From a virus: a stretch of DNA of 64,000 nucleotides. The DNA lies in IMG/VR virus record IMGVR_UViG_3300033141_003184, positions 4,936-68,935 of that record; one strand, 5' to 3'. The translations under genes were made by a program, and so were the position numbers. Position 1 is the stretch's first letter, and each line of letters starts with the position of its first letter. Shown in pieces: positions 19,279 to 27,047 of the stretch. Below the pieces are notes generated by a model. The model saw nothing but the letters and a program-made list of their open reading frames with translations, had not been told where the DNA came from and did no database searches.

Positions 19279-19392
19279 AATGGTACGTCTGGTTTGTGGA
19301 GGGGTCGTTCCACCCCCCATTTATCCCCCATCCCCCAAATACCTACGTATCTATATATGATAATAATTAGATATGATCATCCCATATCAAAT

Positions 19393-19571
19393 TATCTAAA
19401 TAGATAGATATATTGATAATTTGATATGATCTTTAATCCCTTGATAGATAAATATTTATCTATTTATATATGATAATAAGTAAATATGATTGATCCCGGA
19501 TGGATGGATCAGATTATTTTTTATCCAAATATTCACATATCTATCTATCAATATATCTATCTATTTAGATA
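19393..19571. repeat. 26-bp perfect inverted repeat
   Basis: TATCTAAATAGATAGATATATTGATA (19393-19418) and its reverse complement (19546-19571); an overlapping 14-bp IR lies at 19383-19396/19415-19428. Confidence 0.85.
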
Positions 19572-19781
19572 TTTTAATATACCATATCCCTATCTTTAAT
19601 CAATCTAAATAAGGATAAGATGATCCTTATTTTTATTTAGATTTGATTTAGATAAGGATGGATTTATTTTTATTTAGATTGATTATAAATTATCAAAATA
19701 TGATAAAAATCATTTTTTTTATAAAAATATATCCTGATCTTTATATTGATAAAATTATTTATTAATCAAAATTTATCAATT

Positions 19782-20156
19782 ATGGATCAAAAAATCAAAT
19801 CCGATCCTGGGATTAAAGATCAATCCCAGGATCAAATGGATAAAAATCAGATCATTGATGATCTGATAAAATCCATCAAATCATTAAATCCTAATAAATC
19901 TATTATTAGGATATCCAAAAAATCAATTATCGAGATGATGATCCGATATCCTGGGGGATCATCCCTTAAAGATATGGGATTAATGATCAAAAAATTAGGG
20001 ATTGATGATGATCTGGATAAAAATATCAGGGTATCCCGATTATGGATATCAAAATTAGGATATCGGATTATAAGGATAGGGGATCGATATTATCCTGATC
20101 CTGATGATCCCAATAATCCTGATCATCCGGATTATCAAAAAAATCATAAAGGATAA
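19782..20156 (+). CDS. Small DUF3489-like winged-HTH protein, paralogue 1 (GAT-coded)
   Basis: ISKKSIIEMMIRYPGGSSL..M...IKKLGIDDDLDKNIRVSRLWISKLG aligns with 22911..23207 and 35167..35667. ATG at 19782 follows the leader AAAATTTATCAATT, also used at 20702. Confidence 0.8.
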   Translation: MDQKIKSDPGIKDQSQDQMDKNQIIDDLIKSIKSLNPNKSIIRISKKSIIEMMIRYPGGSSLKDMGLMIKKLGIDDDLDKNIRVSRLWISKLGYRIIRIGDRYYPDPDDPNNPDHPDYQKNHKG

Positions 20157-20175
20157 AAATTTTATGATTTTATAA

Positions 20176-20216
20176 AAGGATAAGATTTTATAATCTTATC
20201 CTTATTATCCTTTTTT
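20176..20216 (+). terminator. Probable intrinsic terminator
   Basis: AAGGATAAGATT-TTAT-AATCTTATCCTT hairpin, then a T tract, after the 19782 ORF. Confidence 0.6.
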
Positions 20217-20322
20217 ATGGGGATATCTAAGATATCCCTAAAGACCCCCTATGATCCTGATCCAAATCAGGATATCAGGATTTCATGGGATACGATCTTT
20301 GATATTTTGATATGGGATAAAT

Positions 20323-20428
20323 GGGATTGATATAATATTCCGGGATTTCATCAATTTCTCCGGATTCCCGATCGGATCAGGATCAATCCGGGATAGGGGA
20401 TGAAATCCGGGAATCAAGGATCAATCCC
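20323..20428 (+). ncRNA. Long irregular hairpin upstream of an early gene (possible processing site)
   Basis: Nested pairs GGGATTGAT/ATCAATCCC, ATTCCGGGATTTCATC/GATGAAATCCGGGAAT and CCGGATT/AATCCGG. Confidence 0.55.
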
Positions 20429-20465
20429 GGAAACTTTTGTCTAACTTTATAAAAATTTATTAATC

Positions 20466-20696
20466 ATGAAAAGTCCGTTAAAAGAGGCTTTAATGAAAGC
20501 CAGGAAAGATTATGAAAAAAAGGAAATGCCCGTGGATTATTATAAAATTAAAATCCTTGAGGCTTTGGAATCAGATTATGATGATGTCTATGATGAAATA
20601 AATATCATCAGAGCACTTTCAGAAGTCACCCGGGTGTTATCGGATGAATTATTGGAAGATATGAAAATCTTGGATAAAGAAGAATATTTTGATTAA
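20466..20696 (+). CDS. Hypothetical acidic early protein
   Basis: 76 aa, D/E-rich C-terminal half; TGTCTAAC leader. Confidence 0.75.
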   Translation: MKSPLKEALMKARKDYEKKEMPVDYYKIKILEALESDYDDVYDEINIIRALSEVTRVLSDELLEDMKILDKEEYFD

Positions 20697-20715
20697 TCTT
20701 AAAAATTTATCAATT

Positions 20716-20817
20716 ATGAAAACCATGGAAAGAAAAGCAGATATGAATAGATTGTTTGGATTGGCAATGTTTGTAATTGCAGTCATATCTTTGATGATTA
20801 TGATTGCATCAATCTGA
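20716..20817 (+). CDS. Small single-TM peptide (33 aa)
   Basis: MKTMERKADMNRLFGLAMFVIAVISLMIMIASI; same leader as the 19782 ORF; followed by a terminator. Confidence 0.6.
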   Translation: MKTMERKADMNRLFGLAMFVIAVISLMIMIASI

Positions 20818-20819
20818 TT

Positions 20820-20855
20820 AATAGGGGGATCAAAAATGATCCCCCTATTTTTTTT
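20820..20855 (+). terminator. Intrinsic terminator
   Basis: AATAGGGGGATCA-AAAA-TGATCCCCCTATT followed by a T run. Confidence 0.9.
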
Positions 20856-20994
20856 ATCATTTTATATCTTTATGAAACTACAGAAATAAATCCTATCAAT
20901 TATCTTTTTTGAAACTCAGGAATGCCCAGGAAATTACGGGAAAGAAAGTTGTGAATTAAATCTTTTGAAACTCCCAAAAAAATTCAATTATTTC

Positions 20995-21026
20995 TTTGGA
21001 TTTTCCCGGATTTCTCCTGATCTTTA
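20995..21026 (+). promoter_or_regulatory. Bacteroidota-type sigma70 promoter variant
   Basis: TTTG-N20-GATCTTTA, against the consensus TTTG-N19-21-TAnnTTTG. Confidence 0.5.
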
Positions 21027-21084
21027 ATATTGGATTAAAAGATATAATAAATTTCAATGTCTAACTTTATAAAATTAATTAATC

Positions 21085-21606
21085 ATGAAAACTTTAGAAG
21101 AATTATCAAAATCAAACGCCGATGAATATCGGGAAGAAGTCGAGGGATATATGATCTCGGCGACTGAAGCTCTGGTAAAAAGAGCATTCTTATTACGACA
21201 GAATGCTATTTATCGCTCGTGTAACCCGGGAATGCCGAAAGATAAGTCTCTTGATGAGACTGATCAAATCATTCGTGGAGGAGATCAATATCTGAGGGAA
21301 TATGAAGACATTATGATGATGTCTTGGAAAGTCTCCTCTGTGAATCTAAATGGGGTAAGGGAAGTCGTAGTCGAAAATGTTCCGGACGAACTCCTGGAAC
21401 TCGGAGAAAAGGCTATAAGGGATAACCTAAAAGGAAATCCCGATAATGAGAAGAGAGAAGGGAAAGGAACAATAATTGCTCCAATTACGAATTGGGCGGA
21501 GGTGTTTGAACTGGCATTATCATCATTATCTGAAATTCTTCCTCTTCCTTATGATATATTTGAGGGAGCATTTTGGATAGAAGATGGAAAATTCTATTTT
21601 AACTAA
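21085..21606 (+). CDS. Hypothetical early protein
   Basis: 173 aa; AATGTCTAAC leader. Confidence 0.8.
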   Translation: MKTLEELSKSNADEYREEVEGYMISATEALVKRAFLLRQNAIYRSCNPGMPKDKSLDETDQIIRGGDQYLREYEDIMMMSWKVSSVNLNGVREVVVENVPDELLELGEKAIRDNLKGNPDNEKREGKGTIIAPITNWAEVFELALSSLSEILPLPYDIFEGAFWIEDGKFYFN

Positions 21607-21655
21607 ATCAATAAAATCAAGTAACCATTGTTAAACTCAAAAAACAATTACAATC

Positions 21656-21901
21656 ATGAAAGCAACAATTCACTGCATGCCAGACATGTGTAAACAAAAA
21701 GACAACGAAAAATTGGATCAGTTTGATGATCTTCTATATGCCGGGATGAGCAATGAAACACTCGAGGGAGCTGAACTGGATATAAACGAACTCCTCCATG
21801 ATGTTTATCCTCGCTCCTATTACTACACAGCAATGGAAGATGATGAACTCAATATTTTGGAAGGAGGATCGTGTAGAGTACTTATATCATTCCATAAGTA
21901 G
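21656..21901 (+). CDS. Hypothetical acidic early protein
   Basis: 81 aa, acidic; AT-rich leader ACAATCATG. Confidence 0.75.
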   Translation: MKATIHCMPDMCKQKDNEKLDQFDDLLYAGMSNETLEGAELDINELLHDVYPRSYYYTAMEDDELNILEGGSCRVLISFHK

Positions 21902-21950
21902 GTTGGTCCATGAGGAGGATTTAGGAGGGTTCGATTCCCTCCCTAACCAC
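21901..21950 (+). ncRNA. tRNA-like element (acceptor stem plus T-arm, no anticodon arm)
   Basis: GGTTGG(21901-06)/CTAACC(21943-48) stacks on GGAGGG-TTCGATT-CCCTCC, 12 bp in total; small GG-containing D-like loop. Confidence 0.6.
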
Positions 21951-21975
21951 AATGTCTAACCAAAACATTCTAATT

Positions 21976-22257
21976 ATGGTATACAAAGATCAAATATTAA
22001 CTCATCCCGCGTATCCGGGAAGGCGGTTTAAGCAGGTAAATCGGAGAACCGCCAGGAAACTCTATGATCAAGGGAGACCTGTGTTACTCCATCCGAGTAA
22101 CATGATCTTCAATAACGTTTGGCAGGCTCCATTGGAAATTTCAAATGGAGACGGAATCGACTTCGAGACTCACTTATACAATTTTGAATTCTACATGCCT
22201 TCGGAACTCGGAAGGTATGTGCATTTCTTTGTTGATGTTAACCCTAAAAGCAAATAA
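21976..22257 (+). CDS. Hypothetical early protein
   Basis: FKQVNRRTARKLYDQG...ELGRYVHFF; ATG at 21976 follows the AATGTCTAAC leader. Confidence 0.75.
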   Translation: MVYKDQILTHPAYPGRRFKQVNRRTARKLYDQGRPVLLHPSNMIFNNVWQAPLEISNGDGIDFETHLYNFEFYMPSELGRYVHFFVDVNPKSK

Positions 22258-22283
22258 TTATAAAAGAATTAAATTATAAAATC

Positions 22284-22715
22284 ATGAAAACAAAAGACTT
22301 AAAACCAGGAATGCTCGTATTTCATCGAGAATGGGATCGACGTACAAGTAATCCAATGAAGGTTATTTCCCAGAATGGGAAGATAATGCTACTCCCGATC
22401 CCGAATCCGGAAAATCTCCCACCGACTGAACCATTAGCAGGTGGAGAATCAGACGATGGTTGGGAAGAATTGAAAAGAATGGAAACAATAAAGACTCTCT
22501 CTTTTCGAATGAAAAAGCTCTCCGACAAGGAAGTGGAAGAGCTTTATAAAGTGTGGCCGGCATTGGAAACTCCTTATGCTGTAGCAGAATTCGGATCATG
22601 GGGACTCATCACAATTCCAATGGTTCCAAATGGAGCTCAGATGTATTATGTAGAGATCGACATTGAAGGAGGAGGAAGAGATGTTTGGTATGAAATTATC
22701 GACTCCGTTATTTAG
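22284..22715 (+). CDS. Hypothetical early protein
   Basis: 143 aa; N-terminal DLKPGMLV SH3-like start. Confidence 0.7.
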   Translation: MKTKDLKPGMLVFHREWDRRTSNPMKVISQNGKIMLLPIPNPENLPPTEPLAGGESDDGWEELKRMETIKTLSFRMKKLSDKEVEELYKVWPALETPYAVAEFGSWGLITIPMVPNGAQMYYVEIDIEGGGRDVWYEIIDSVI

Positions 22716-22761
22716 ATTCATTATAAATTAGGGGGTCAGGGTCAAATTTTTCTCCGATTTC

Positions 22762-22793
22762 CTTGCCATTACCAAAATGACATCATATATTTA
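22762..22793 (+). promoter_or_regulatory. Bacteroidota-type promoter upstream of the ribozyme cassette
   Basis: CTTG-N20-TATATTTA. Confidence 0.5.
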
Positions 22794-22828
22794 TAGTGAT
22801 CTTTAGATCAGGAACAAATGAGTTCATT

Positions 22829-22888
22829 GACATTCTGATGAATCCAAAAGGACGAAACCGGGATTACGGGATAACCCCGGTCAATGTC
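22829..22888 (+). ncRNA. Type I hammerhead ribozyme (HHR1)
   Basis: Stem I GACATT/AATGTC; core CTGATGA 22835-41; stem II (A)TCC-AAAA-GGA(C); GAAA 22854-57; stem III ACCGGG-a-TTA/TAA-c-CCCGGT; GUC cleavage after 22882. The stem II closing pair is A.C rather than G-C. Confidence 0.85.
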
Positions 22889-22910
22889 TAACTCAAAAAA
22901 TTTTTAAGTT

Positions 22911-23207
22911 ATGGAAACTGTGGAAACTATTCAAGCAGCTGTAGTAAACCCCAAGGAAGGGAAAACTACCAGGGAAGCTCAGGAAACTGAGAAAAAACCC
23001 CGGGTTACAAAAAAGTCCGTGGTGATTGAATTGATCTCAAAAGGTGATGGAGCTACCGTCAACCAGATTGCAAAGGAAATTGTCAGGAGAGGGATCGACG
23101 CCGATCTTGAGAAAAACAAGAGAGTAGTACGTCTCTGGCTCAGCAAGCTCGGAATGCCTGTGCAACGAGATAAAGAGACCGGAAAGTACACTCCTGTTAA
23201 GAAGTAG
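22911..23207 (+). CDS. Small DUF3489-like winged-HTH protein, paralogue 2 (ribozyme-flanked)
   Basis: TKKSVVIELISKGDGATVNQIAKEIVRRGIDADLEKNKRVVRLWLSKLG. Confidence 0.85.
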   Translation: METVETIQAAVVNPKEGKTTREAQETEKKPRVTKKSVVIELISKGDGATVNQIAKEIVRRGIDADLEKNKRVVRLWLSKLGMPVQRDKETGKYTPVKK

Positions 23208-23271
23208 ACATTCTGATGAGACCTGATTAGGTCGAAACCCGGATCACCGAGTTGACCCGGGTCAATGTCTA
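23205..23271 (+). ncRNA. Type I hammerhead ribozyme (HHR2)
   Basis: Stem I TAGACATT/AATGTCTA; CTGATGA 23213-19; stem II GACCT-GATT-AGGTC; GAAA 23234-37; stem III ACCCGG-a-TCA/TGA-c-CCGGGT; GUC cleavage after 23263. The core is fully canonical. Confidence 0.95.
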
Positions 23272-23467
23272 AGAATAAAGCATGATTATTTGTTTTGGAC
23301 TTGATATAAAAACATAAAAAACACCCCAAAATTCGCCCGTACATTTTAATCTGATGGACTTTTACGGGTGGAGTAATGGTCTATATTGGATCGGGGGTGA
23401 AAGTCGCTCAGATCAAAAGGAATTTTTTTTCATTATATTTAATGTCTAACCCAAAAAACAAATGCCT

Positions 23468-23638
23468 ATGACGAAAGAACAAGAAAATGAATTAAAAAAG
23501 CTTCAGGAAAGAATAAATTTTCTGAAGGACCTCCTCTGTGATCCTAAGAGGATCGCTGCAGGAGACTTTTCCCGAAAAGAAATACGGGAAGAAATTCACG
23601 ATTTAGAAAAGTTTATTAACTCTCGAAAAACAAAGTAA
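23468..23638 (+). CDS. Small coiled-coil protein (56 aa)
   Basis: MTKEQENELKKLQERINFLKDLL...; preceded by the AATGTCTAAC leader; below the ORF-track cutoff. Confidence 0.65.
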   Translation: MTKEQENELKKLQERINFLKDLLCDPKRIAAGDFSRKEIREEIHDLEKFINSRKTK

Positions 23639-23639
23639 A

Positions 23640-24167
23640 ATGAAACATTTAATCAAATTTAATCATTCCGCAAGTAGCTTTCATGAAGCCATCGGAGTTG
23701 ATAAAAACGTTCAATTTGAAGTTTTGGAAAAATTGAAAGAGATGGACTTAGAGAGCTCTACTAACTCGGAGGTTGTTGAAAAAGCGTTTTCCGAATTCAA
23801 ATCAAAAGAGATCAAATCCGTGAGAGAAGTGTTGATTCCCTTATTACTTGGATTGAATATGTTTAACAAACTTGGAAAGGTTGCCCTCATGGCATCACAA
23901 GCACCGGAAGACGGGAAAGAAAGAGAACCAGTGATCGAGTTTGAATTCGATCACTCAAAAAGGAACTTAAATGAAGCCGTGTGGGGAGAGAATTACGAGG
24001 AGACTCTCTTAAAAGTTGGTTCGTGGGAGAAAGGATTTTTTCTAAAGAATGATAATGGAGAATATCTTTCACCATTATCAAAAGTGGTAGAAGATATATT
24101 AAAGGTGGGAGAGAGTGACGAAACCATTTTCTCCGCCTTCATCCTGCTTGGCTCGATAGGAAAGTAA
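23640..24167 (+). CDS. Hypothetical protein, F[ND]H-repeat family member 1
   Basis: IKFNHSASSFHEAIGVDK and internal repeat FEFDHSKRNLNEAV. Confidence 0.8.
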   Translation: MKHLIKFNHSASSFHEAIGVDKNVQFEVLEKLKEMDLESSTNSEVVEKAFSEFKSKEIKSVREVLIPLLLGLNMFNKLGKVALMASQAPEDGKEREPVIEFEFDHSKRNLNEAVWGENYEETLLKVGSWEKGFFLKNDNGEYLSPLSKVVEDILKVGESDETIFSAFILLGSIGK

Positions 24168-24196
24168 AGAAAGGGGAAAATTCCCCCTTTCTTTTT
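24166..24196 (+). terminator. Probable intrinsic terminator
   Basis: AAAGAAAGGGGAA...TTCCCCCTTTCTTT then T tract. Confidence 0.6.
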
Positions 24197-24220
24197 GTTT
24201 AACCGTAATATTATAAAATC

Positions 24221-24700
24221 ATGGAAATAAAAATAACATTTGACCATGACTCTCATTCTCTTGAGAGAGCTATTTTTATAAATGACAAACCATTGGAACG
24301 TTACCTACCATCAAAAGTAGGGAAAACGAAAATAGGAGTATTACTCTCCATGGAATTGAATTCCTCTAACGGCAAGAGTGATAACGAGATTAGTGATTCT
24401 TTACTGAAAATATCACTCATACCGGAGGAAACGAGAATATCGTCAGTTCTTACCTTGGGTATGCTGAGATTCAGTGAAAATCCAAAGATAAGAAACGTAT
24501 TAGAACAGAAGTTAAGGAAGATATCCAACGACATGGTTTATCTGTACGGAGCTAACTACCAAACGAGGTGGTCAAAAATAATAGAATTAATTCTAAAAGA
24601 GGAAGATAATGGAAATGATGTTTACTCCTTGTACCTGCTTGGAGTACTGCTCGGCTTTCATCCATTTGTAATAGAAAAGACTCATTCATTTCTTAATTAA
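24221..24700 (+). CDS. Hypothetical protein, F[ND]H-repeat family member 2
   Basis: ITFDHDSHSLERAIF N-terminus; WSKIIELILK. Confidence 0.75.
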   Translation: MEIKITFDHDSHSLERAIFINDKPLERYLPSKVGKTKIGVLLSMELNSSNGKSDNEISDSLLKISLIPEETRISSVLTLGMLRFSENPKIRNVLEQKLRKISNDMVYLYGANYQTRWSKIIELILKEEDNGNDVYSLYLLGVLLGFHPFVIEKTHSFLN

Positions 24701-24725
24701 AAAAATTAAAAATTTCGAGAAAAAA

Positions 24726-24757
24726 TTTGGGTCATAAAAATGTCCTGATTATCTTTA
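24726..24757 (+). promoter_or_regulatory. Bacteroidota-type promoter
   Basis: TTTG-N20-TATCTTTA. Confidence 0.55.
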
Positions 24758-24774
24758 TAAAAAGATGAGAAACT

Positions 24775-25005
24775 ATGACAATAAAATGTGAGAACTCGGT
24801 CTATTCATTTAGATATTTTGAAAAAAGACATAACGAAGCGATAGTACCAGGAATAAAGGTAACCGGGAAGAATGAAGCCATTCTATACCGGATAAACAAA
24901 ACCTGGATTTCCTATGAGGATGATCTGTTAATTCCAGCGGATCATATTTGGAAATTTATTGATATTATTGAACAAATCTACATCTTTGATGATCAAAAGA
25001 ATTAA
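24775..25005 (+). CDS. Hypothetical protein
   Basis: 76-aa ORF after the promoter. Confidence 0.6.
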   Translation: MTIKCENSVYSFRYFEKRHNEAIVPGIKVTGKNEAILYRINKTWISYEDDLLIPADHIWKFIDIIEQIYIFDDQKN

Positions 25006-25190
25006 AACGATGAAAAAGGAACAATTTATTAAACAACTCAATAAATTTATCAGGAAAAACATAAAAAAAGACTGTCGAGCTTGTGAAGAAGAAATGGAAA
25101 AAATTGAACTTGTAACCAGAAAAAGAATTCCATTTGTTGTAACTTTCAGACCTGATTATGACAGTGGAGAAGGATGGCATATTGAGGTAG

Positions 25191-27047
25191 ATGAGGAGTA
25201 AAAATTATAAATTAAAGAAAAGGATCGCTGAAGAACAAAATATCCCACAAGTATTCTCAGCGATCCTCCTGGAAGAGTCAAGCGTGGGGTATTATTTATG
25301 GAATGGTAACAATGTAGATCGGTGGATCAGGAAAGAGTGGATAAAGAAAATATGGGATGAGAAAAAAGAAATCGAGAAACCAAAAGATCATTATATATAC
25401 CATAGAAAAAAGAAGTTGAAGAAAGTGAACAAAGCTATTTATATAGAAGGAGATTTAATAAAGCTCACATTTAAGTTTTCATTTGATCTGTTAGATAAAG
25501 TAAGATCATTACCGGGTAGAAAATACTACAGCCAGGAAAAATACTGGACTGTTCCAATATATCCAAAAACGATTCATCTTCTAAAAGAATGGGGATTTGA
25601 ACTGGACGAAAGAATAAGAGAAGTACTCGAAAACAGGAAGAGAGACAAACTAAAAATATCGAGATTCAAAGGAGAGTTATATCCATTTCAGAAAGACGGA
25701 GTAGCTTTTGTAGAAGCCAATAATGGTAAGGCTCTTATTGCTGATGACATGGGTTTGGGAAAAACAATCCAGAGTATAGCATGGATTCAGATGCATCCGG
25801 AATTGACTCCGGTACTAATCGTGTGTCCGGCATCATTAAAGCTGAATTGGAAAAAAGAAATAGAAAAATTTACCGAAGGAAGAGATATAGAAATACTATC
25901 AGGAGTATTTCCATGGGAACCGACTGGCGATACTTTGATAATAAATTACGATATATTGACTCATTGGGAAAGTACTCTCAGTAAAACAAGACCACAAGTA
26001 TTGATTGCTGATGAGTGTCATTATTTTAAGAATCCTTCAGCAAGAAGAACAAAATCAATAATGAGATTAGGCAGAAGAATCCCTCATATAATTACTCTTT
26101 CGGGGACTCCAATACTAAATCGACCCATAGAAGCTTTCAATGCTCTTAAACTGATAGCACCTGACCTATTTCCAAGTTATTGGAAATATGCTCATCGTTA
26201 CTGCGGAGCAAAACATAATGGTTTTGGTTGGGATTTCTCAGGAGCTTCCCATACTGATGAACTTCACCATTTATTGAAATCGTCGGTAATGATAAGAAGA
26301 TTAAAAACAGATGTATTAAAGGAATTACCAGAAAAGATAAGATCGTTCATTCCAATAGAGTTAAAGAATAAAAAAGAATATGAATCAGCAGAAATAGATT
26401 TTGTAAGATTTATATACCAAACCAAAGGAAGAGAAGCCGCAAAGAAGATAAGAAATACATCAGCTCTATCATCTATCGAGGGATTAAAACAATTAGCTGT
26501 AAAAGGGAAAATAGATCAGGTAATAGAGTGGATCAAAGATTTTTTACAGATCGAAGACAAACTGGTCGTATTTGCCATACACCGGCATGTCATTGATTAT
26601 TTAATGGGAGTATTTGGCGATATAGCGGTTAAAGTAGATGGATCAGTGTCAGGAAAAAAAAGACAAGAAGCCATAGATAGATTTCAAAATGACGCAAAGA
26701 TAAAATTATTTATCGGAAATATTAGAGCTGCCGGAGTAGGCATAACCCTCACAGCTTCTTCGACAGTAGTTTTTATTGAATTACCATGGACTCCGGGAGA
26801 ATTAATTCAAGCTGAAGATAGAGTTCATAGGATAGGTCAAAGAGAATCGGTAAACATATATTATCTATTAGCCGTAGGAACAATAGAAGAGAGAATAGCA
26901 GGTATTATAGACAACAAAAGGAAAGTATTAGATCAGGTATTAGATGGGAAGGAACCAGAAAGAGATTCGCTTTTAAGAGAGTTATTAGATCAATATAAAA
27001 AAGAATTTAAGCAGGATTTCGAAGAAGAATATGATGTTCAACCATAA
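25191..27047 (+). CDS. SNF2-family helicase (SMARCAL1/HARP-like)
   Basis: LIADDMGLGKT, DECH, LSGTPILNRP and QAEDRVHRIGQ motifs; HARP-like N-domain. Confidence 0.95.
   Translation: MRSKNYKLKKRIAEEQNIPQVFSAILLEESSVGYYLWNGNNVDRWIRKEWIKKIWDEKKEIEKPKDHYIYHRKKKLKKVNKAIYIEGDLIKLTFKFSFDLLDKVRSLPGRKYYSQEKYWTVPIYPKTIHLLKEWGFELDERIREVLENRKRDKLKISRFKGELYPFQKDGVAFVEANNGKALIADDMGLGKTIQSIAWIQMHPELTPVLIVCPASLKLNWKKEIEKFTEGRDIEILSGVFPWEPTGDTLIINYDILTHWESTLSKTRPQVLIADECHYFKNPSARRTKSIMRLGRRIPHIITLSGTPILNRPIEAFNALKLIAPDLFPSYWKYAHRYCGAKHNGFGWDFSGASHTDELHHLLKSSVMIRRLKTDVLKELPEKIRSFIPIELKNKKEYESAEIDFVRFIYQTKGREAAKKIRNTSALSSIEGLKQLAVKGKIDQVIEWIKDFLQIEDKLVVFAIHRHVIDYLMGVFGDIAVKVDGSVSGKKRQEAIDRFQNDAKIKLFIGNIRAAGVGITLTASSTVVFIELPWTPGELIQAEDRVHRIGQRESVNIYYLLAVGTIEERIAGIIDNKRKVLDQVLDGKEPERDSLLRELLDQYKKEFKQDFEEEYDVQP

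What the first reader, a model, noticed from the sequence alone, without database searches (positions are those of the whole stretch)
22829..23271. Gene bracketed by two hammerhead ribozymes: candidate self-excising, circularisable phage mRNA
Seen: two type I hammerheads in the same orientation flank the 98-aa ORF 22911-23207. HHR1 cuts after C22882, 28 nt before the ATG, and HHR2 cuts after C23263. Their stems II and III differ in sequence but keep pairing, including an A.C mismatch at the same stem III position, which points to selection on structure. The released RNA (22883-23263, 381 nt) starts AAUGUCUA and ends GGGUC. Because both cut sites are followed by the same AAUGUCUA, the 5' end can pair with HHR2 stem I (UAGACAUU) and rebuild a full hammerhead across the junction. 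Known: hammerhead cleavage leaves 5'-OH and 2',3'-cyclic phosphate ends, which the ribozyme or RtcB can ligate; retrozymes and viroid-like RNAs circularise this way. Inference: the phage makes a discrete, possibly circular and stabilised mRNA for one DNA-binding protein.
Basis: partly seen in the sequence, partly recalled or inferred. Interest (0 to 1): 0.95.

Follow-up and report, generated by a model that had tools for sequence, protein, structure and literature searches.

The report
Two hammerhead ribozymes bracketing a phage gene
Two real self-cutting hammerhead RNAs flank a small gene in this phage, but this is a known way for phages to chop a long message into single-gene pieces, and nothing here shows the piece becomes a circle.

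Summary
Two type I hammerheads (HHR1 22829-22888, cut after C22882; HHR2 23205-23271, cut after C23263) flank ORF 22911-23207. A covariance model built only from related phages finds exactly these two sites in the 64-kb window (54.7 bits, E 1.8e-11; 42.2 bits, E 2.8e-8). The fold shows strong covariation across 15 copies.

In nine phage contigs the same ribozyme sits in tandem series of 2-5. Each copy starts at the stop codon of one ORF and cuts about 20-29 nt before the next ATG, and the bracketed genes differ. Perreault et al. 2011 (PMC3088659) described this layout in prophages. They proposed single-gene mRNA processing, considered circles and detected none.

The shared AAUGUCUA after both cuts is a recurrent leader. 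It occurs at five + strand sites, three of them without a ribozyme. In a relative it follows a twister-sister ribozyme.

HHR1 is the weak copy: A.C at 10.1/11.1, a 3-bp stem II and a competing fold. Homologues of the gene elsewhere lack both ribozymes.

Circularisation is geometrically possible but untested. This scan has noted similar arrays on other DNA.

The parts
20820..20849 (+). Strong intrinsic-terminator-like hairpin with a T run. It is the likely upstream boundary of the operon that holds the two hammerheads.
   Evidence: 13 pairs followed by TTTTTTAT.
22819..22895 (+). HHR1 with its outer helix. GAGUU (22819-22823) pairs with AACUC (22891-22895) and extends stem I across an internal loop.
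   Evidence: Constrained fold and MFE.
22829..22888 (+). HHR1, a type I hammerhead. The predicted cut lies between C22882 and A22883. It has A.C at 10.1/11.1 and a 3-bp stem II.
   Evidence: 42.2 bits, E 2.8e-8 with a model that never saw it. The canonical fold lies 4 kcal/mol above the MFE.
22883..22910 (+). 28-nt leader that starts AAUGUCUAAC. It would be the 5'-OH end of the released mRNA.
22911..23207 (+). ORF P0001, 98 aa, with a disordered N-terminus and a winged-helix-like, DUF3489-like domain. Its stop codon UAG (23205-23207) forms the first three bases of HHR2 stem I.
   Evidence: - Translation.
- DUF3489 at 20.1 bits, below the 29.5 cut-off; 8 of 10 family members hit DUF3489.
- AF2 model with H-H-H-strand-strand topology and pLDDT 86-93 for residues 31-80.
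- Foldseek top rows are wHTH regulators, all at E >= 0.043.
23205..23271 (+). HHR2, a fully canonical type I hammerhead with an 8-bp stem I. The predicted cut lies between C23263 and A23264.
   Evidence: 54.7 bits, E 1.8e-11; the MFE is the hammerhead fold.
23264..23440 (+). 177-nt stretch released downstream of HHR2. It starts with the same leader, has no ORF of 40 aa or more that starts and ends inside it on the + strand, and is structured. The next leader copy is at 23441.
   Evidence: (no ORF of 40 aa or more lying wholly inside on the + strand), and (MFE -39.2 kcal/mol, z -2.2).
24166..24194 (+). Terminator-like hairpin with a T run. It is the likely downstream boundary of the operon.

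Best explanation
The two hammerheads are punctuation marks in a phage operon of about 3.3 kb (roughly 20850-24194, + strand).

Proposed mechanism:
- As RNA polymerase passes each ribozyme, the RNA folds and cuts itself. This needs no host nuclease.
- HHR2 starts on the stop codon of the 98-aa gene and cuts 56 nt after it. The gene's mRNA therefore ends in a folded ribozyme with a 2',3'-cyclic phosphate.
- HHR1 cuts 28 nt before the start codon. The mRNA therefore begins with a 5'-OH on the standard leader AAUGUCUAAC that other genes of this operon also carry.
- The product is a discrete linear single-gene mRNA of 381 nt. Its stability and translation are uncoupled from those of its neighbours.
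- The RNA downstream of HHR2 likewise starts with the leader.

Shown here: the motifs, their covariation, their recurrence in series in related phages, and their fixed placement (stop codon, then ribozyme, then leader, then ATG).

Inferred: cleavage itself, co-transcription of the operon, and the effect on stability or translation.

HHR1 is the less certain partner.
For: 1. Both motifs are found by model R2, which was trained only on other phages. They are the only 2 hits in 64 kb on both strands.

2. Covariation across 15 copies:
   - 96.1% of 257 cells are paired.
   - 14 of 18 pairs carry double changes.
   - 0 of 500 shuffles reach the observed values.
   - Slid controls give 19.6-36.9% paired.

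3. All 15 R1 hits in 85 sources (906 kb) lie on the helicase-gene strand. Eighteen more hits were found in 6 of 80 further loci.

4. Nine contigs carry 2-5 copies in series: the window, L029/L152, L044, L067, L043/L161, L150, L136, L134 and L122.

5. Placement over 15 inter-ribozyme intervals in 8 contigs (with for L067):
   - 10 intervals hold a single ORF.
   - In 12, the first ATG is 20-29 nt after the cut.
   - In 12, the next ribozyme starts within -9 to +11 nt of the end of the last ORF.

6. Only weak terminator-like + strand sites, both inside ORFs (21169-21185 and 22192-22221), lie between the strong ones at 20820-20849 and 24166-24194.

7. Perreault et al. 2011 report this layout in prophages. 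They also report in vitro cleavage at all sites for three tandem arrangements, and in vivo cleavage in E. coli for one (passages).

8. The leader recurs without ribozymes. In relative L001 it follows a twister-sister hit (51.2 bits, gathering score 34). That ribozyme's published cut site, CGCUC|AU (PMC5660989), would leave 5'-AAUGUUUAACU.
Against: - No RNA data. No sequencing run could be listed, so cleavage, operon structure and product ends are unobserved.
- HHR1 departs from the family. It has A.C at 10.1/11.1 (1 of 15 copies). Perreault et al. used that feature to reject candidates.
- HHR1 has only 3 pairs in stem II, and its hammerhead fold is about 0.2% of the predicted ensemble.
- HHR1 lies 113 nt after the upstream stop codon, not on it.
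- Rfam gathering scores are not reached.
- Most helicase relatives show no such ribozyme. R1 hits occur in only 7 of 80 loci, many with short upstream flanks.
- The nearest syntenic genome, G001, has none. The device is therefore dispensable.
Confidence: 0.6

Rival explanations
1. Only HHR2 works. HHR1 is a decaying or very slow copy. The gene's 5' end would then be set by a promoter or by read-through, and HHR2 alone would form the 3' end, doing the job of the terminator that follows the homologous gene in relative L001. No excised unit would exist.
For: - HHR1 is the only one of 15 copies with a mismatch at 10.1/11.1.
- Its stem II has 3 pairs, and its canonical fold is 4 kcal/mol above the MFE.
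- It scores 12.5 bits below HHR2 with R2.
- It is not placed on a stop codon as the others are.
- A TTGCCA-17-TATATT promoter-like site lies at 22763-22791.
- In L001 the homologue has a hairpin and T run directly downstream and no ribozyme.
Against: - HHR1 keeps every invariant core base, the A15.1-U16.1 pair, C17, a 6-bp stem I with an outer helix, and a 6+3-bp stem III.
- Two stem III pairs differ from HHR2 by compensatory double changes. That would not be expected if the structure had been freed from selection.
- Perreault et al. state that stem II is often only two pairs, and that variants in phage contexts were often active.
- The promoter-like match is no more than chance gives: 2 found against 3.7 expected.
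Confidence: 0.22
2. After double cleavage, the 381-nt RNA is closed into a circle by reverse hammerhead ligation within the re-formed HHR2, or by a host RtcB-type ligase. The result would be an exonuclease-resistant, translatable circular mRNA.
For: - The ends fit. Both cuts are followed by the same 9 bases, AAUGUCUAA, of which the first 8 (AAUGUCUA) can pair with HHR2 stem I. In the linear MFE, nt 1-8 pair with HHR2's stem I strand.
- In 4 of 6 adjacent ribozyme pairs in four contigs the junction stem I would be 6/6 paired, against 32% of 114 cross-locus combinations.
- All five L136 copies share one stem I.
- Type I hammerhead units of animal retrozymes are circularised in vitro by RtcB (30-80%) and weakly by themselves (1-3%) (PMC7229834).
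- RtcB is common in bacteria. The family was found in 10 of 14 control genomes.
Against: - The shared end sequence has a simpler cause: the leader also occurs at sites without ribozymes.
- In 2 of 6 adjacent pairs the junction would have only 4 of 6 pairs and none next to the core.
- Paralogy within a genome inflates the agreement between copies.
- The phage encodes no RtcB or RNA_ligase family protein.
- Perreault et al. could not detect circular or spliced products from tandem phage hammerheads (data not shown in that paper).
- No reading frame stays open around the circle.
- Terminating ribosomes at UAG 23205-23207 would unwind the junction helix.
Confidence: 0.1
3. The ribozymes act mainly as translation or 5'-end devices rather than separators. 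Cleavage would free an otherwise sequestered leader, or the folded ribozyme would promote initiation on the next ORF, with cutting gated by the ribosome that terminates on the stop codon inside stem I.
For: - The cut is at a fixed short distance (20-29 nt) from the next ATG in 12 of 15 intervals, and the stop codon sits in or beside stem I.
- Ribozymes placed a few nt before ORFs promote translation in some RNA viruses (PMC13725137, passages).
Against: - This does not exclude the main reading, and nothing here measures translation.
- HHR2 is followed by a leader but no ORF of 40 aa or more before the next leader at 23441.
- HHR1 is not on a stop codon.
Confidence: 0.15

Closest known systems
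Clustered hammerhead ribozymes flanking single genes or short gene blocks in prophages and phages (Perreault et al. 2011, PLoS Comput Biol, PMC3088659; passages read)
   Same: - Several same-strand hammerheads lie inside one transcription unit.
- They flank single genes or short blocks whose identity is not constant.
- The proposed role is processing of long phage transcripts into single-gene mRNAs.
- Circular or spliced products were explicitly considered there.
   Different: - This subfamily is type I with a long stem III, and it does not reach any Rfam gathering score.
- Each copy is wedged between a stop codon and a conserved leader.
- In this window the same leader also follows a tRNA-like element and a promoter-like region.
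- I could not see that paper's figures or its Dataset S1, so I cannot say whether this subfamily is already in its alignments.
Retrozymes and viroid-like circular RNAs made by paired hammerheads (PMC4918200 search listing only; PMC7229834 passages; PMC7761336 passages)
   Same: Two same-sense hammerheads release a unit RNA with 5'-OH and cyclic-phosphate ends. Those ends can re-pair into a hammerhead, which is a substrate for RtcB-type ligases.
   Different: - Those units are non-coding tandem or LTR-flanked repeats of eukaryotes, or replicating RNAs.
- Here the cargo is a unique protein-coding gene in a dsDNA phage operon, and the flanks are not repeats beyond the ribozymes.
- No circle has been seen here.
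Twister-sister ribozyme (Rfam RF02681; PMC5660989 passages)
   Same: In relative L001 a twister-sister ribozyme occupies the equivalent slot, between a stop codon and a leader. Its published C|A cut site would leave the same kind of 5' end (AAUGUUUAACU).
   Different: It is a different ribozyme class. It is present in the relative (51.2 bits) and not in this window.
Synthetic ribozyme insulators such as RiboJ, and tRNA punctuation of mitochondrial transcripts (both recalled, not from a call)
   Same: A self-cleaving or tRNA-shaped element standardises the 5' end of each message and uncouples neighbouring genes.
   Different: These are analogies only. One is engineered and the other is organellar.

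Membership tests
Hammerhead ribozyme, type I | Invariant core: C3 U4 G5 A6 N7 G8 A9, then G12 A13 A14 | tested here: met
   Both copies have CUGAUGA and GAA at the right places. These columns are invariant in the alignments.
Hammerhead ribozyme, type I | A15.1-U16.1 pair and H17 (not G) at the cut site | tested here: met
   A22857-U22881 with C22882, and A23237-U23262 with C23263. The A-U pair is present in 15 of 15 copies.
Hammerhead ribozyme, type I | Three helices around the core, supported by covariation, with helix I open-ended | tested here: met
   - 96.1% of cells are paired, and 14 of 18 pairs carry double changes.
- Slid controls give 19.6-36.9% paired.
- Caveat: the alignment was fitted to the model.
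Hammerhead ribozyme, type I | Standard pair next to the core in stem II (10.1-11.1, usually G-C) | tested here: not met
   HHR2 has G-C. HHR1 has A.C and is the only one of 15 copies without G-C. The feature is therefore met by HHR2 only. Perreault et al. rejected hits with such mispairs unless activity could be measured.
Hammerhead ribozyme, type I | Score at or above an Rfam hammerhead gathering threshold | tested here: not met
   - 0 hits at gathering threshold.
- RF03152 scores 26.6 and 20.5 bits against 56.3.
- RF00163 scores 16.7 bits against 34.
- RF02275 scores 16.4 bits against 52.
Hammerhead ribozyme, type I | Site-specific self-cleavage | not testable with these tools
   This needs in vitro transcription or end mapping.
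Clustered phage hammerheads flanking genes (Perreault 2011) | Two or more same-strand hammerheads within one operon that flank single genes or short blocks of varying identity | tested here: met
   Window. Eight further contigs carry 2-5 copies. Ten of 15 intervals hold a single ORF, and the ORFs differ between contigs.
Hammerhead-derived circular RNA (retrozyme or viroid-like) | Released unit whose two ends can re-form a complete hammerhead | tested here: met
   The first 9 bases after both cuts are identical (AAUGUCUAA), and the first 8 of them can pair with HHR2 stem I. In the linear MFE, nt 1-8 pair with nt 330-323.
Hammerhead-derived circular RNA (retrozyme or viroid-like) | Observed covalently closed RNA (junction reads, RNase R resistance) | not testable with these tools
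   No sequencing run was listed, so no reads could be laid.
Hammerhead-derived circular RNA (retrozyme or viroid-like) | Conservation of the bracket around the same cargo in relatives | tested here: not met
   Homologue loci L001 and L006 (54% identity) and L003/L004 (30%) have no hammerhead. The whole genome G001 has 0 R2 hits.
DUF3489 / winged-helix DNA-binding domain (the ORF) | Pfam gathering score for PF11994 | tested here: not met
   20.1 bits against 29.5. Eight of 10 family members hit it, with best E 4.9e-5.
DUF3489 / winged-helix DNA-binding domain (the ORF) | Three helices followed by a beta-hairpin wing, and similarity to solved wHTH domains | tested here: inconclusive
   - The AF2 model has helices 34-43, 50-59 and 66-79 and strands 84-86 and 93-95.
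- Foldseek top rows are Fur, BlaI/MecI, IclR and forkhead domains, but the best E is 0.043.
- There is no PDB sequence hit.

The most novel reading that the evidence does not exclude
The 381-nt RNA cut out by the two hammerheads is closed in the infected cell by a host RtcB-type ligase, or by HHR2 running in reverse. The result would be a circular, exonuclease-resistant mRNA for a small DNA-binding protein. The within-genome uniformity of stem I in such arrays (window 2 of 2, L067 2 of 2, L136 5 of 5) would then be maintained partly so that any excised unit can close on itself.
Probability: 0.08. Interest if true: 0.8.

Novelty: new member of a known kind. Interest (0 to 1): 0.35.

Why it matters
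The biological role of genomic hammerheads in phages is still called unclear in reviews (PMC6765202). This locus is a clean, compact test case. It is 450 nt long and holds one fully canonical and one borderline ribozyme around one small gene. Relatives show the same slot filled by other devices.

The locus could be used to measure three things:
- what ribozyme punctuation does to mRNA half-life and translation;
- whether a 10.1/11.1 mismatch is tolerated in vivo;
- whether any circular product forms.

It also shows that a whole subfamily of phage type I hammerheads falls below the Rfam thresholds. That matters for annotation. It does not by itself change what is known about how such arrays work.

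Tried and rejected
- **RNA evidence.** The look-up of sequencing runs on 21500-24500 listed no run and no RNA holder. Read laying could therefore not be used, and this is no evidence either way.
- **Closest relatives of the gene.** P0002 (94% identity) and P0003 (88%) come.
- **Protein-based locus scans.** These gave few loci: 1 and 3 in viral contigs, 2 in metagenome contigs and 0 in genome contigs.
- **DNA similarity to deposited phages.** There was no match. The helicase has no relative above 40% identity there, so the host stays unknown.
- **Exact-stem pattern.** The pattern taken from the window found 0 stretches in viral contigs.
- **Loose pattern.** It gave more than 111 stretches. Of the 80 listed, only 6 loci held model hits. 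The others are presumably chance matches of a loose pattern.
- **Trans-cleavage idea.** The lead came from earlier scan notes: one ribozyme cutting the other leader copies. I rejected it. The leader copies at 20438, 21056, 21627, 21951 and 23441 lack the stem III 3' strand upstream, and in a type I hammerhead that strand is tethered by loop III.
- **Endless translation around a circle.** Rejected. All three frames contain stops.
- **Mobile-cassette idea** (gene plus two ribozyme repeats moving as a unit). I found nothing for it. Relatives bracket unrelated genes in operon register with stop codons, and I did not pursue it further.
- **Minus-strand 'terminator' at 22882-22856**. This is just HHR1 stem III read backwards.
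- **DUF2693 RNA match** (19 bits against 81.3). I take it as chance.
- **Other Rfam families.** None appear in 19300-25300 at E <= 5 apart from the weak hammerhead rows, terminator-like rows and other weak rows (E 0.0088-4.8) that I take as chance, including a 17-nt tmRNA match on the T-loop of the tRNA-like element.
- **Rfam gathering on 13 related loci.** It found only one type II hammerhead, in L022.
- **Supplementary files.** Those of the papers were closed. Perreault's Dataset S1 and figures may already contain this subfamily.
Full report
**What is there.** The window is part of a complete 68,935-base virus record with direct terminal repeats and 36% G+C.

At 22829-22888 and 23205-23271, on the + strand, lie two hammerhead motifs of open-stem-I (type I) topology.
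- HHR1 reads: stem I GACAUU/AAUGUC, core CUGAUGA, stem II A-UCC-AAAA-GGA-C, GAA, stem III ACCGGG/CCCGGU, C17.
- HHR2 reads: stem I UAGACAUU/AAUGUCUA, core CUGAUGA, stem II GACC/GGUC, GAA, stem III ACCCGG/CCGGGU, C17.
- The predicted cuts follow C22882 and C23263.
- Between them lie a 28-nt leader, the 98-codon ORF 22911-23207, and HHR2 itself. HHR2's first three bases are the ORF's stop codon.
So is the A.C mismatch at the seventh position of both stems III.

**Is it more than chance?**
- A simple descriptor finds only these two compact hits in the whole genome.
- Over 87 sources (915 kb) it finds 14 hits, against none in five block shuffles.
- Rfam does not help. Nothing reaches a gathering score. 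The best sub-threshold rows are RAGATH-1-hammerhead at 26.6 and 20.5 bits against 56.3.
- I therefore built covariance models of my own.
  - R1 was built from 8 copies including the window's two. It gave 15 hits at E <= 1 in 85 sources (906 kb), all on the strand of the neighbouring helicase gene.
  - R2 was built from 11 copies of other phages only. In the window it gave exactly two hits at E <= 10: HHR2 at 54.7 bits (E 1.8e-11) and HHR1 at 42.2 bits (E 2.8e-8).
- On the 15-copy alignment, 96.1% of cells are standard pairs. Fourteen of 18 pairs show changes on both sides, and no shuffle of 500 reaches the observed values. Partners slid by 1-3 columns give only 19.6-36.9% pairing. That alignment was fitted to the model, which favours the structure.

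**The two copies are not equal.**
- HHR2 is canonical, and its minimum-energy fold is the hammerhead. About a third of the predicted ensemble has that fold.
- HHR1 has A.C at 10.1/11.1. It is the only one of 15 copies without G-C there.
- HHR1 has only three pairs in stem II, and a competing fold lies 4 kcal/mol below the hammerhead.
- HHR1 lies 113 nt after the upstream stop codon, not on it.
- HHR1 keeps all invariant core bases and has an outer helix that extends stem I.
- Perreault et al. used a mispair at 10.1/11.1 to reject candidates. They note, however, that such variants in prophage contexts were often tested as likely functional variants.

**Context in relatives.** The gene family (alignment A1) is small and rare.
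- The homologue loci whose DNA I could read have no hammerhead on either side: L001/L002/L005, which are one contig; L006; and the distant L003/L004.
- In L001 the homologue is followed by a hairpin and a T run. That whole 77,650-base genome has no R2 hit.
- Relatives found through the neighbouring SNF2-type helicase, and through a hammerhead-plus-leader pattern, show the ribozyme in series.
  - L029 (the same contig as L152) has three copies, L044 three and L067 two.
  - L043 (the same contig as L161) has two. One is a truncated remnant that lacks the cut site.
  - L150 has four copies, L136 five, L134 two and L122 two.
- Over 15 inter-ribozyme intervals in 8 contigs:
  - 10 hold one ORF, and the others hold two or three ORFs or are unclear;
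  - in 12, the first ATG is 20-29 nt after the cut;
  - in 12, the next ribozyme begins within -9 to +11 nt of the end of the last ORF.
- The bracketed ORFs are unrelated to P0001. None of these loci was retrieved by A1.
- The bracket is therefore a property of operon architecture in this group of phages, not of this gene.

**The shared sequence after the cuts.**
- AATGTCTAA occurs six times exactly in the window, against 1.13 expected. None of 100 shuffles reaches six.
- Five copies are on the + strand, at 21056, 21951, 22883, 23264 and 23441. Variants lie at 20436, 21627 and 24194. Most of them, including all exact copies that precede an ORF, lie 21-30 nt before an ATG.
- Only two of these copies follow hammerheads.
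  - One follows a tRNA-like element with a T-arm, at 21901-21950.
  - One lies in the spacer after the strong terminator at 20820-20849.
- Related phages carry variants of the leader after their hammerheads, for example UAUGUCAAACUAAAAA.
- In L001, AAUGUUUAACU follows a twister-sister ribozyme that scores 51.2 bits against a gathering score of 34.
  - The published cut site of that class is the C-A step of CGCUC|AU (PMC5660989).
  - Read onto the Rfam alignment, this puts the cut directly before AAUGUUUAACU.
- The simplest reading is that the leader is constrained for its own reasons, and that each ribozyme uses its first bases as the 3' strand of its outer helix. What the leader does is not settled here. 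It could be a translation-initiation region, a promoter element or a protein site.

**Operon.** Only weak terminator-like + strand sites, both inside ORFs (21169-21185 and 22192-22221), lie between the strong hairpins at 20820-20849 and 24166-24194. Sigma-70-like promoter matches are no more frequent than in shuffles. Co-transcription of about 21056-24194 is thus plausible but is inferred.

**Mechanism proposed.**
- Co-transcriptional self-cleavage at both sites yields a linear 381-nt monocistronic mRNA.
- It would have a 5'-OH on the standard leader and a 3' end that is a folded ribozyme carrying a 2',3'-cyclic phosphate.
- The downstream RNA would again start with the leader.
- From established hammerhead chemistry, and from recalled work on 5'-OH mRNAs and ribozyme insulators in E. 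coli, such ends should uncouple the gene's stability and translation from its neighbours. That step is inferred.
[quoted passage not shown] They showed cleavage at all sites in vitro for three tandem arrangements. A 2019 review still lists this as a suggestion needing work (PMC6765202).

**The circle.**
- For it:
  - The geometry is right, because the released RNA's 5' end is predicted to pair with HHR2's stem I.
  - Animal type I hammerhead units are closed efficiently by RtcB in vitro, but only 1-3% by themselves (PMC7229834).
- Against it:
  - The leader explains the shared ends.
  - In 2 of 6 adjacent pairs in relatives the junction helix would be imperfect next to the core.
  - The phage has no RtcB or RNA-ligase family gene.
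  - Perreault et al. report that they could not detect circular or spliced products.
- No RNA data could be obtained. I put a biologically meaningful circle at about one in ten.

**The protein.**
- P0001 has a disordered N-terminal third and a C-terminal domain with three helices and a two-strand wing (pLDDT 86-93 for residues 31-80).
- Pfam DUF3489 is hit below threshold by 8 of 10 family members.
- Foldseek's top rows are winged-helix regulators, at E >= 0.043.
- There is no PDB sequence hit.
- DNA binding is likely but not shown.
- A paralogue at 19782-20156 aligns with the family at 31% identity.

**Novelty.**
- The kind is known (Perreault 2011).
- This scan has noted comparable arrays, including arrays that mix tRNA-like elements and ribozymes, on other DNA.
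- What this case adds:
  - a hammerhead subfamily below the Rfam thresholds;
  - a very regular order of stop codon, ribozyme, leader and ATG;
  - the same leader behind three different kinds of upstream element, across this phage and a relative.
- In my searches I saw no paper reporting a natural hammerhead-made circular mRNA in a phage. Those searches cover only the held library.

Noticed in passing
window 21056, 21951, 22883, 23264, 23441 (exact); 20436, 21627, 24194 (variants): A leader, AAUGUCUAAC-like, sits 21-30 nt before most start codons of this operon. It occurs 6 times exactly against 1.13 expected. It appears behind hammerheads, behind a tRNA-like element, and in a spacer after a terminator. 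Its function is unknown.
   Followed up: partly
window 21901-21950: A tRNA-like element lies between two ORFs and ends 1-2 nt before a leader copy. It has a 6-bp acceptor-like stem, a small hairpin and a T-arm (GGAGGG-UUCGAUU-CCCUCC). ARAGORN calls no tRNA, and its fold energy is not unusual (z -0.7).
   Followed up: partly
L001 3968-4038 (also G001:C1:65131-65201): A twister-sister ribozyme (51.2 bits, above gathering) sits between a stop codon and a leader in the relative that carries the P0001 homologue. It is the only copy in that 77.6-kb genome. A tRNA-like T-arm (GAAAG-UUCGAUC-CUUUC) lies at about L001 3803-3819, before another gene.
   Followed up: partly
window 23264-23440: The 177 nt released downstream of HHR2 hold no ORF of 40 aa or more that starts and ends inside the stretch on the + strand; one 11-codon ORF starts at 23282. 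The stretch folds into a long-range helix (CACCCC/GGGGGUG) that encloses hairpins (z -2.2). It could be a small RNA, an unrecognised processing element or a decayed gene.
   Followed up: partly
L043 20-81, compared with L044 4196-4290: This hammerhead copy lacks the cut-site base, the 3' strand of stem I, the leader and the next gene's start codon, all of which L044 has. It appears to be a deletion of roughly 38 nt.
   Followed up: partly
L136 1256-2961: Five hammerheads lie in series. All five use the same stem I (GGUUAA/UUAACC) and a different leader (UUAACCAUAA...), with the ATG 20-22 nt after each cut. Stem I is thus uniform within a genome although the sequence differs between phages.
   Followed up: no
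L022 5493-5569 and 5921-5976: A type II hammerhead (Rfam 42.1 bits, above gathering) lies about 430 nt upstream of a type I copy on the same strand. The two topologies are mixed in one array.
   Followed up: no
window 23205-23207 and the equivalent sites in L029, L044, L067 and L134: The upstream ORF's stop codon (UAG or UAA) forms or abuts the first bases of stem I. A terminating ribosome would therefore cover the ribozyme's 5' strand and core.
   Followed up: partly
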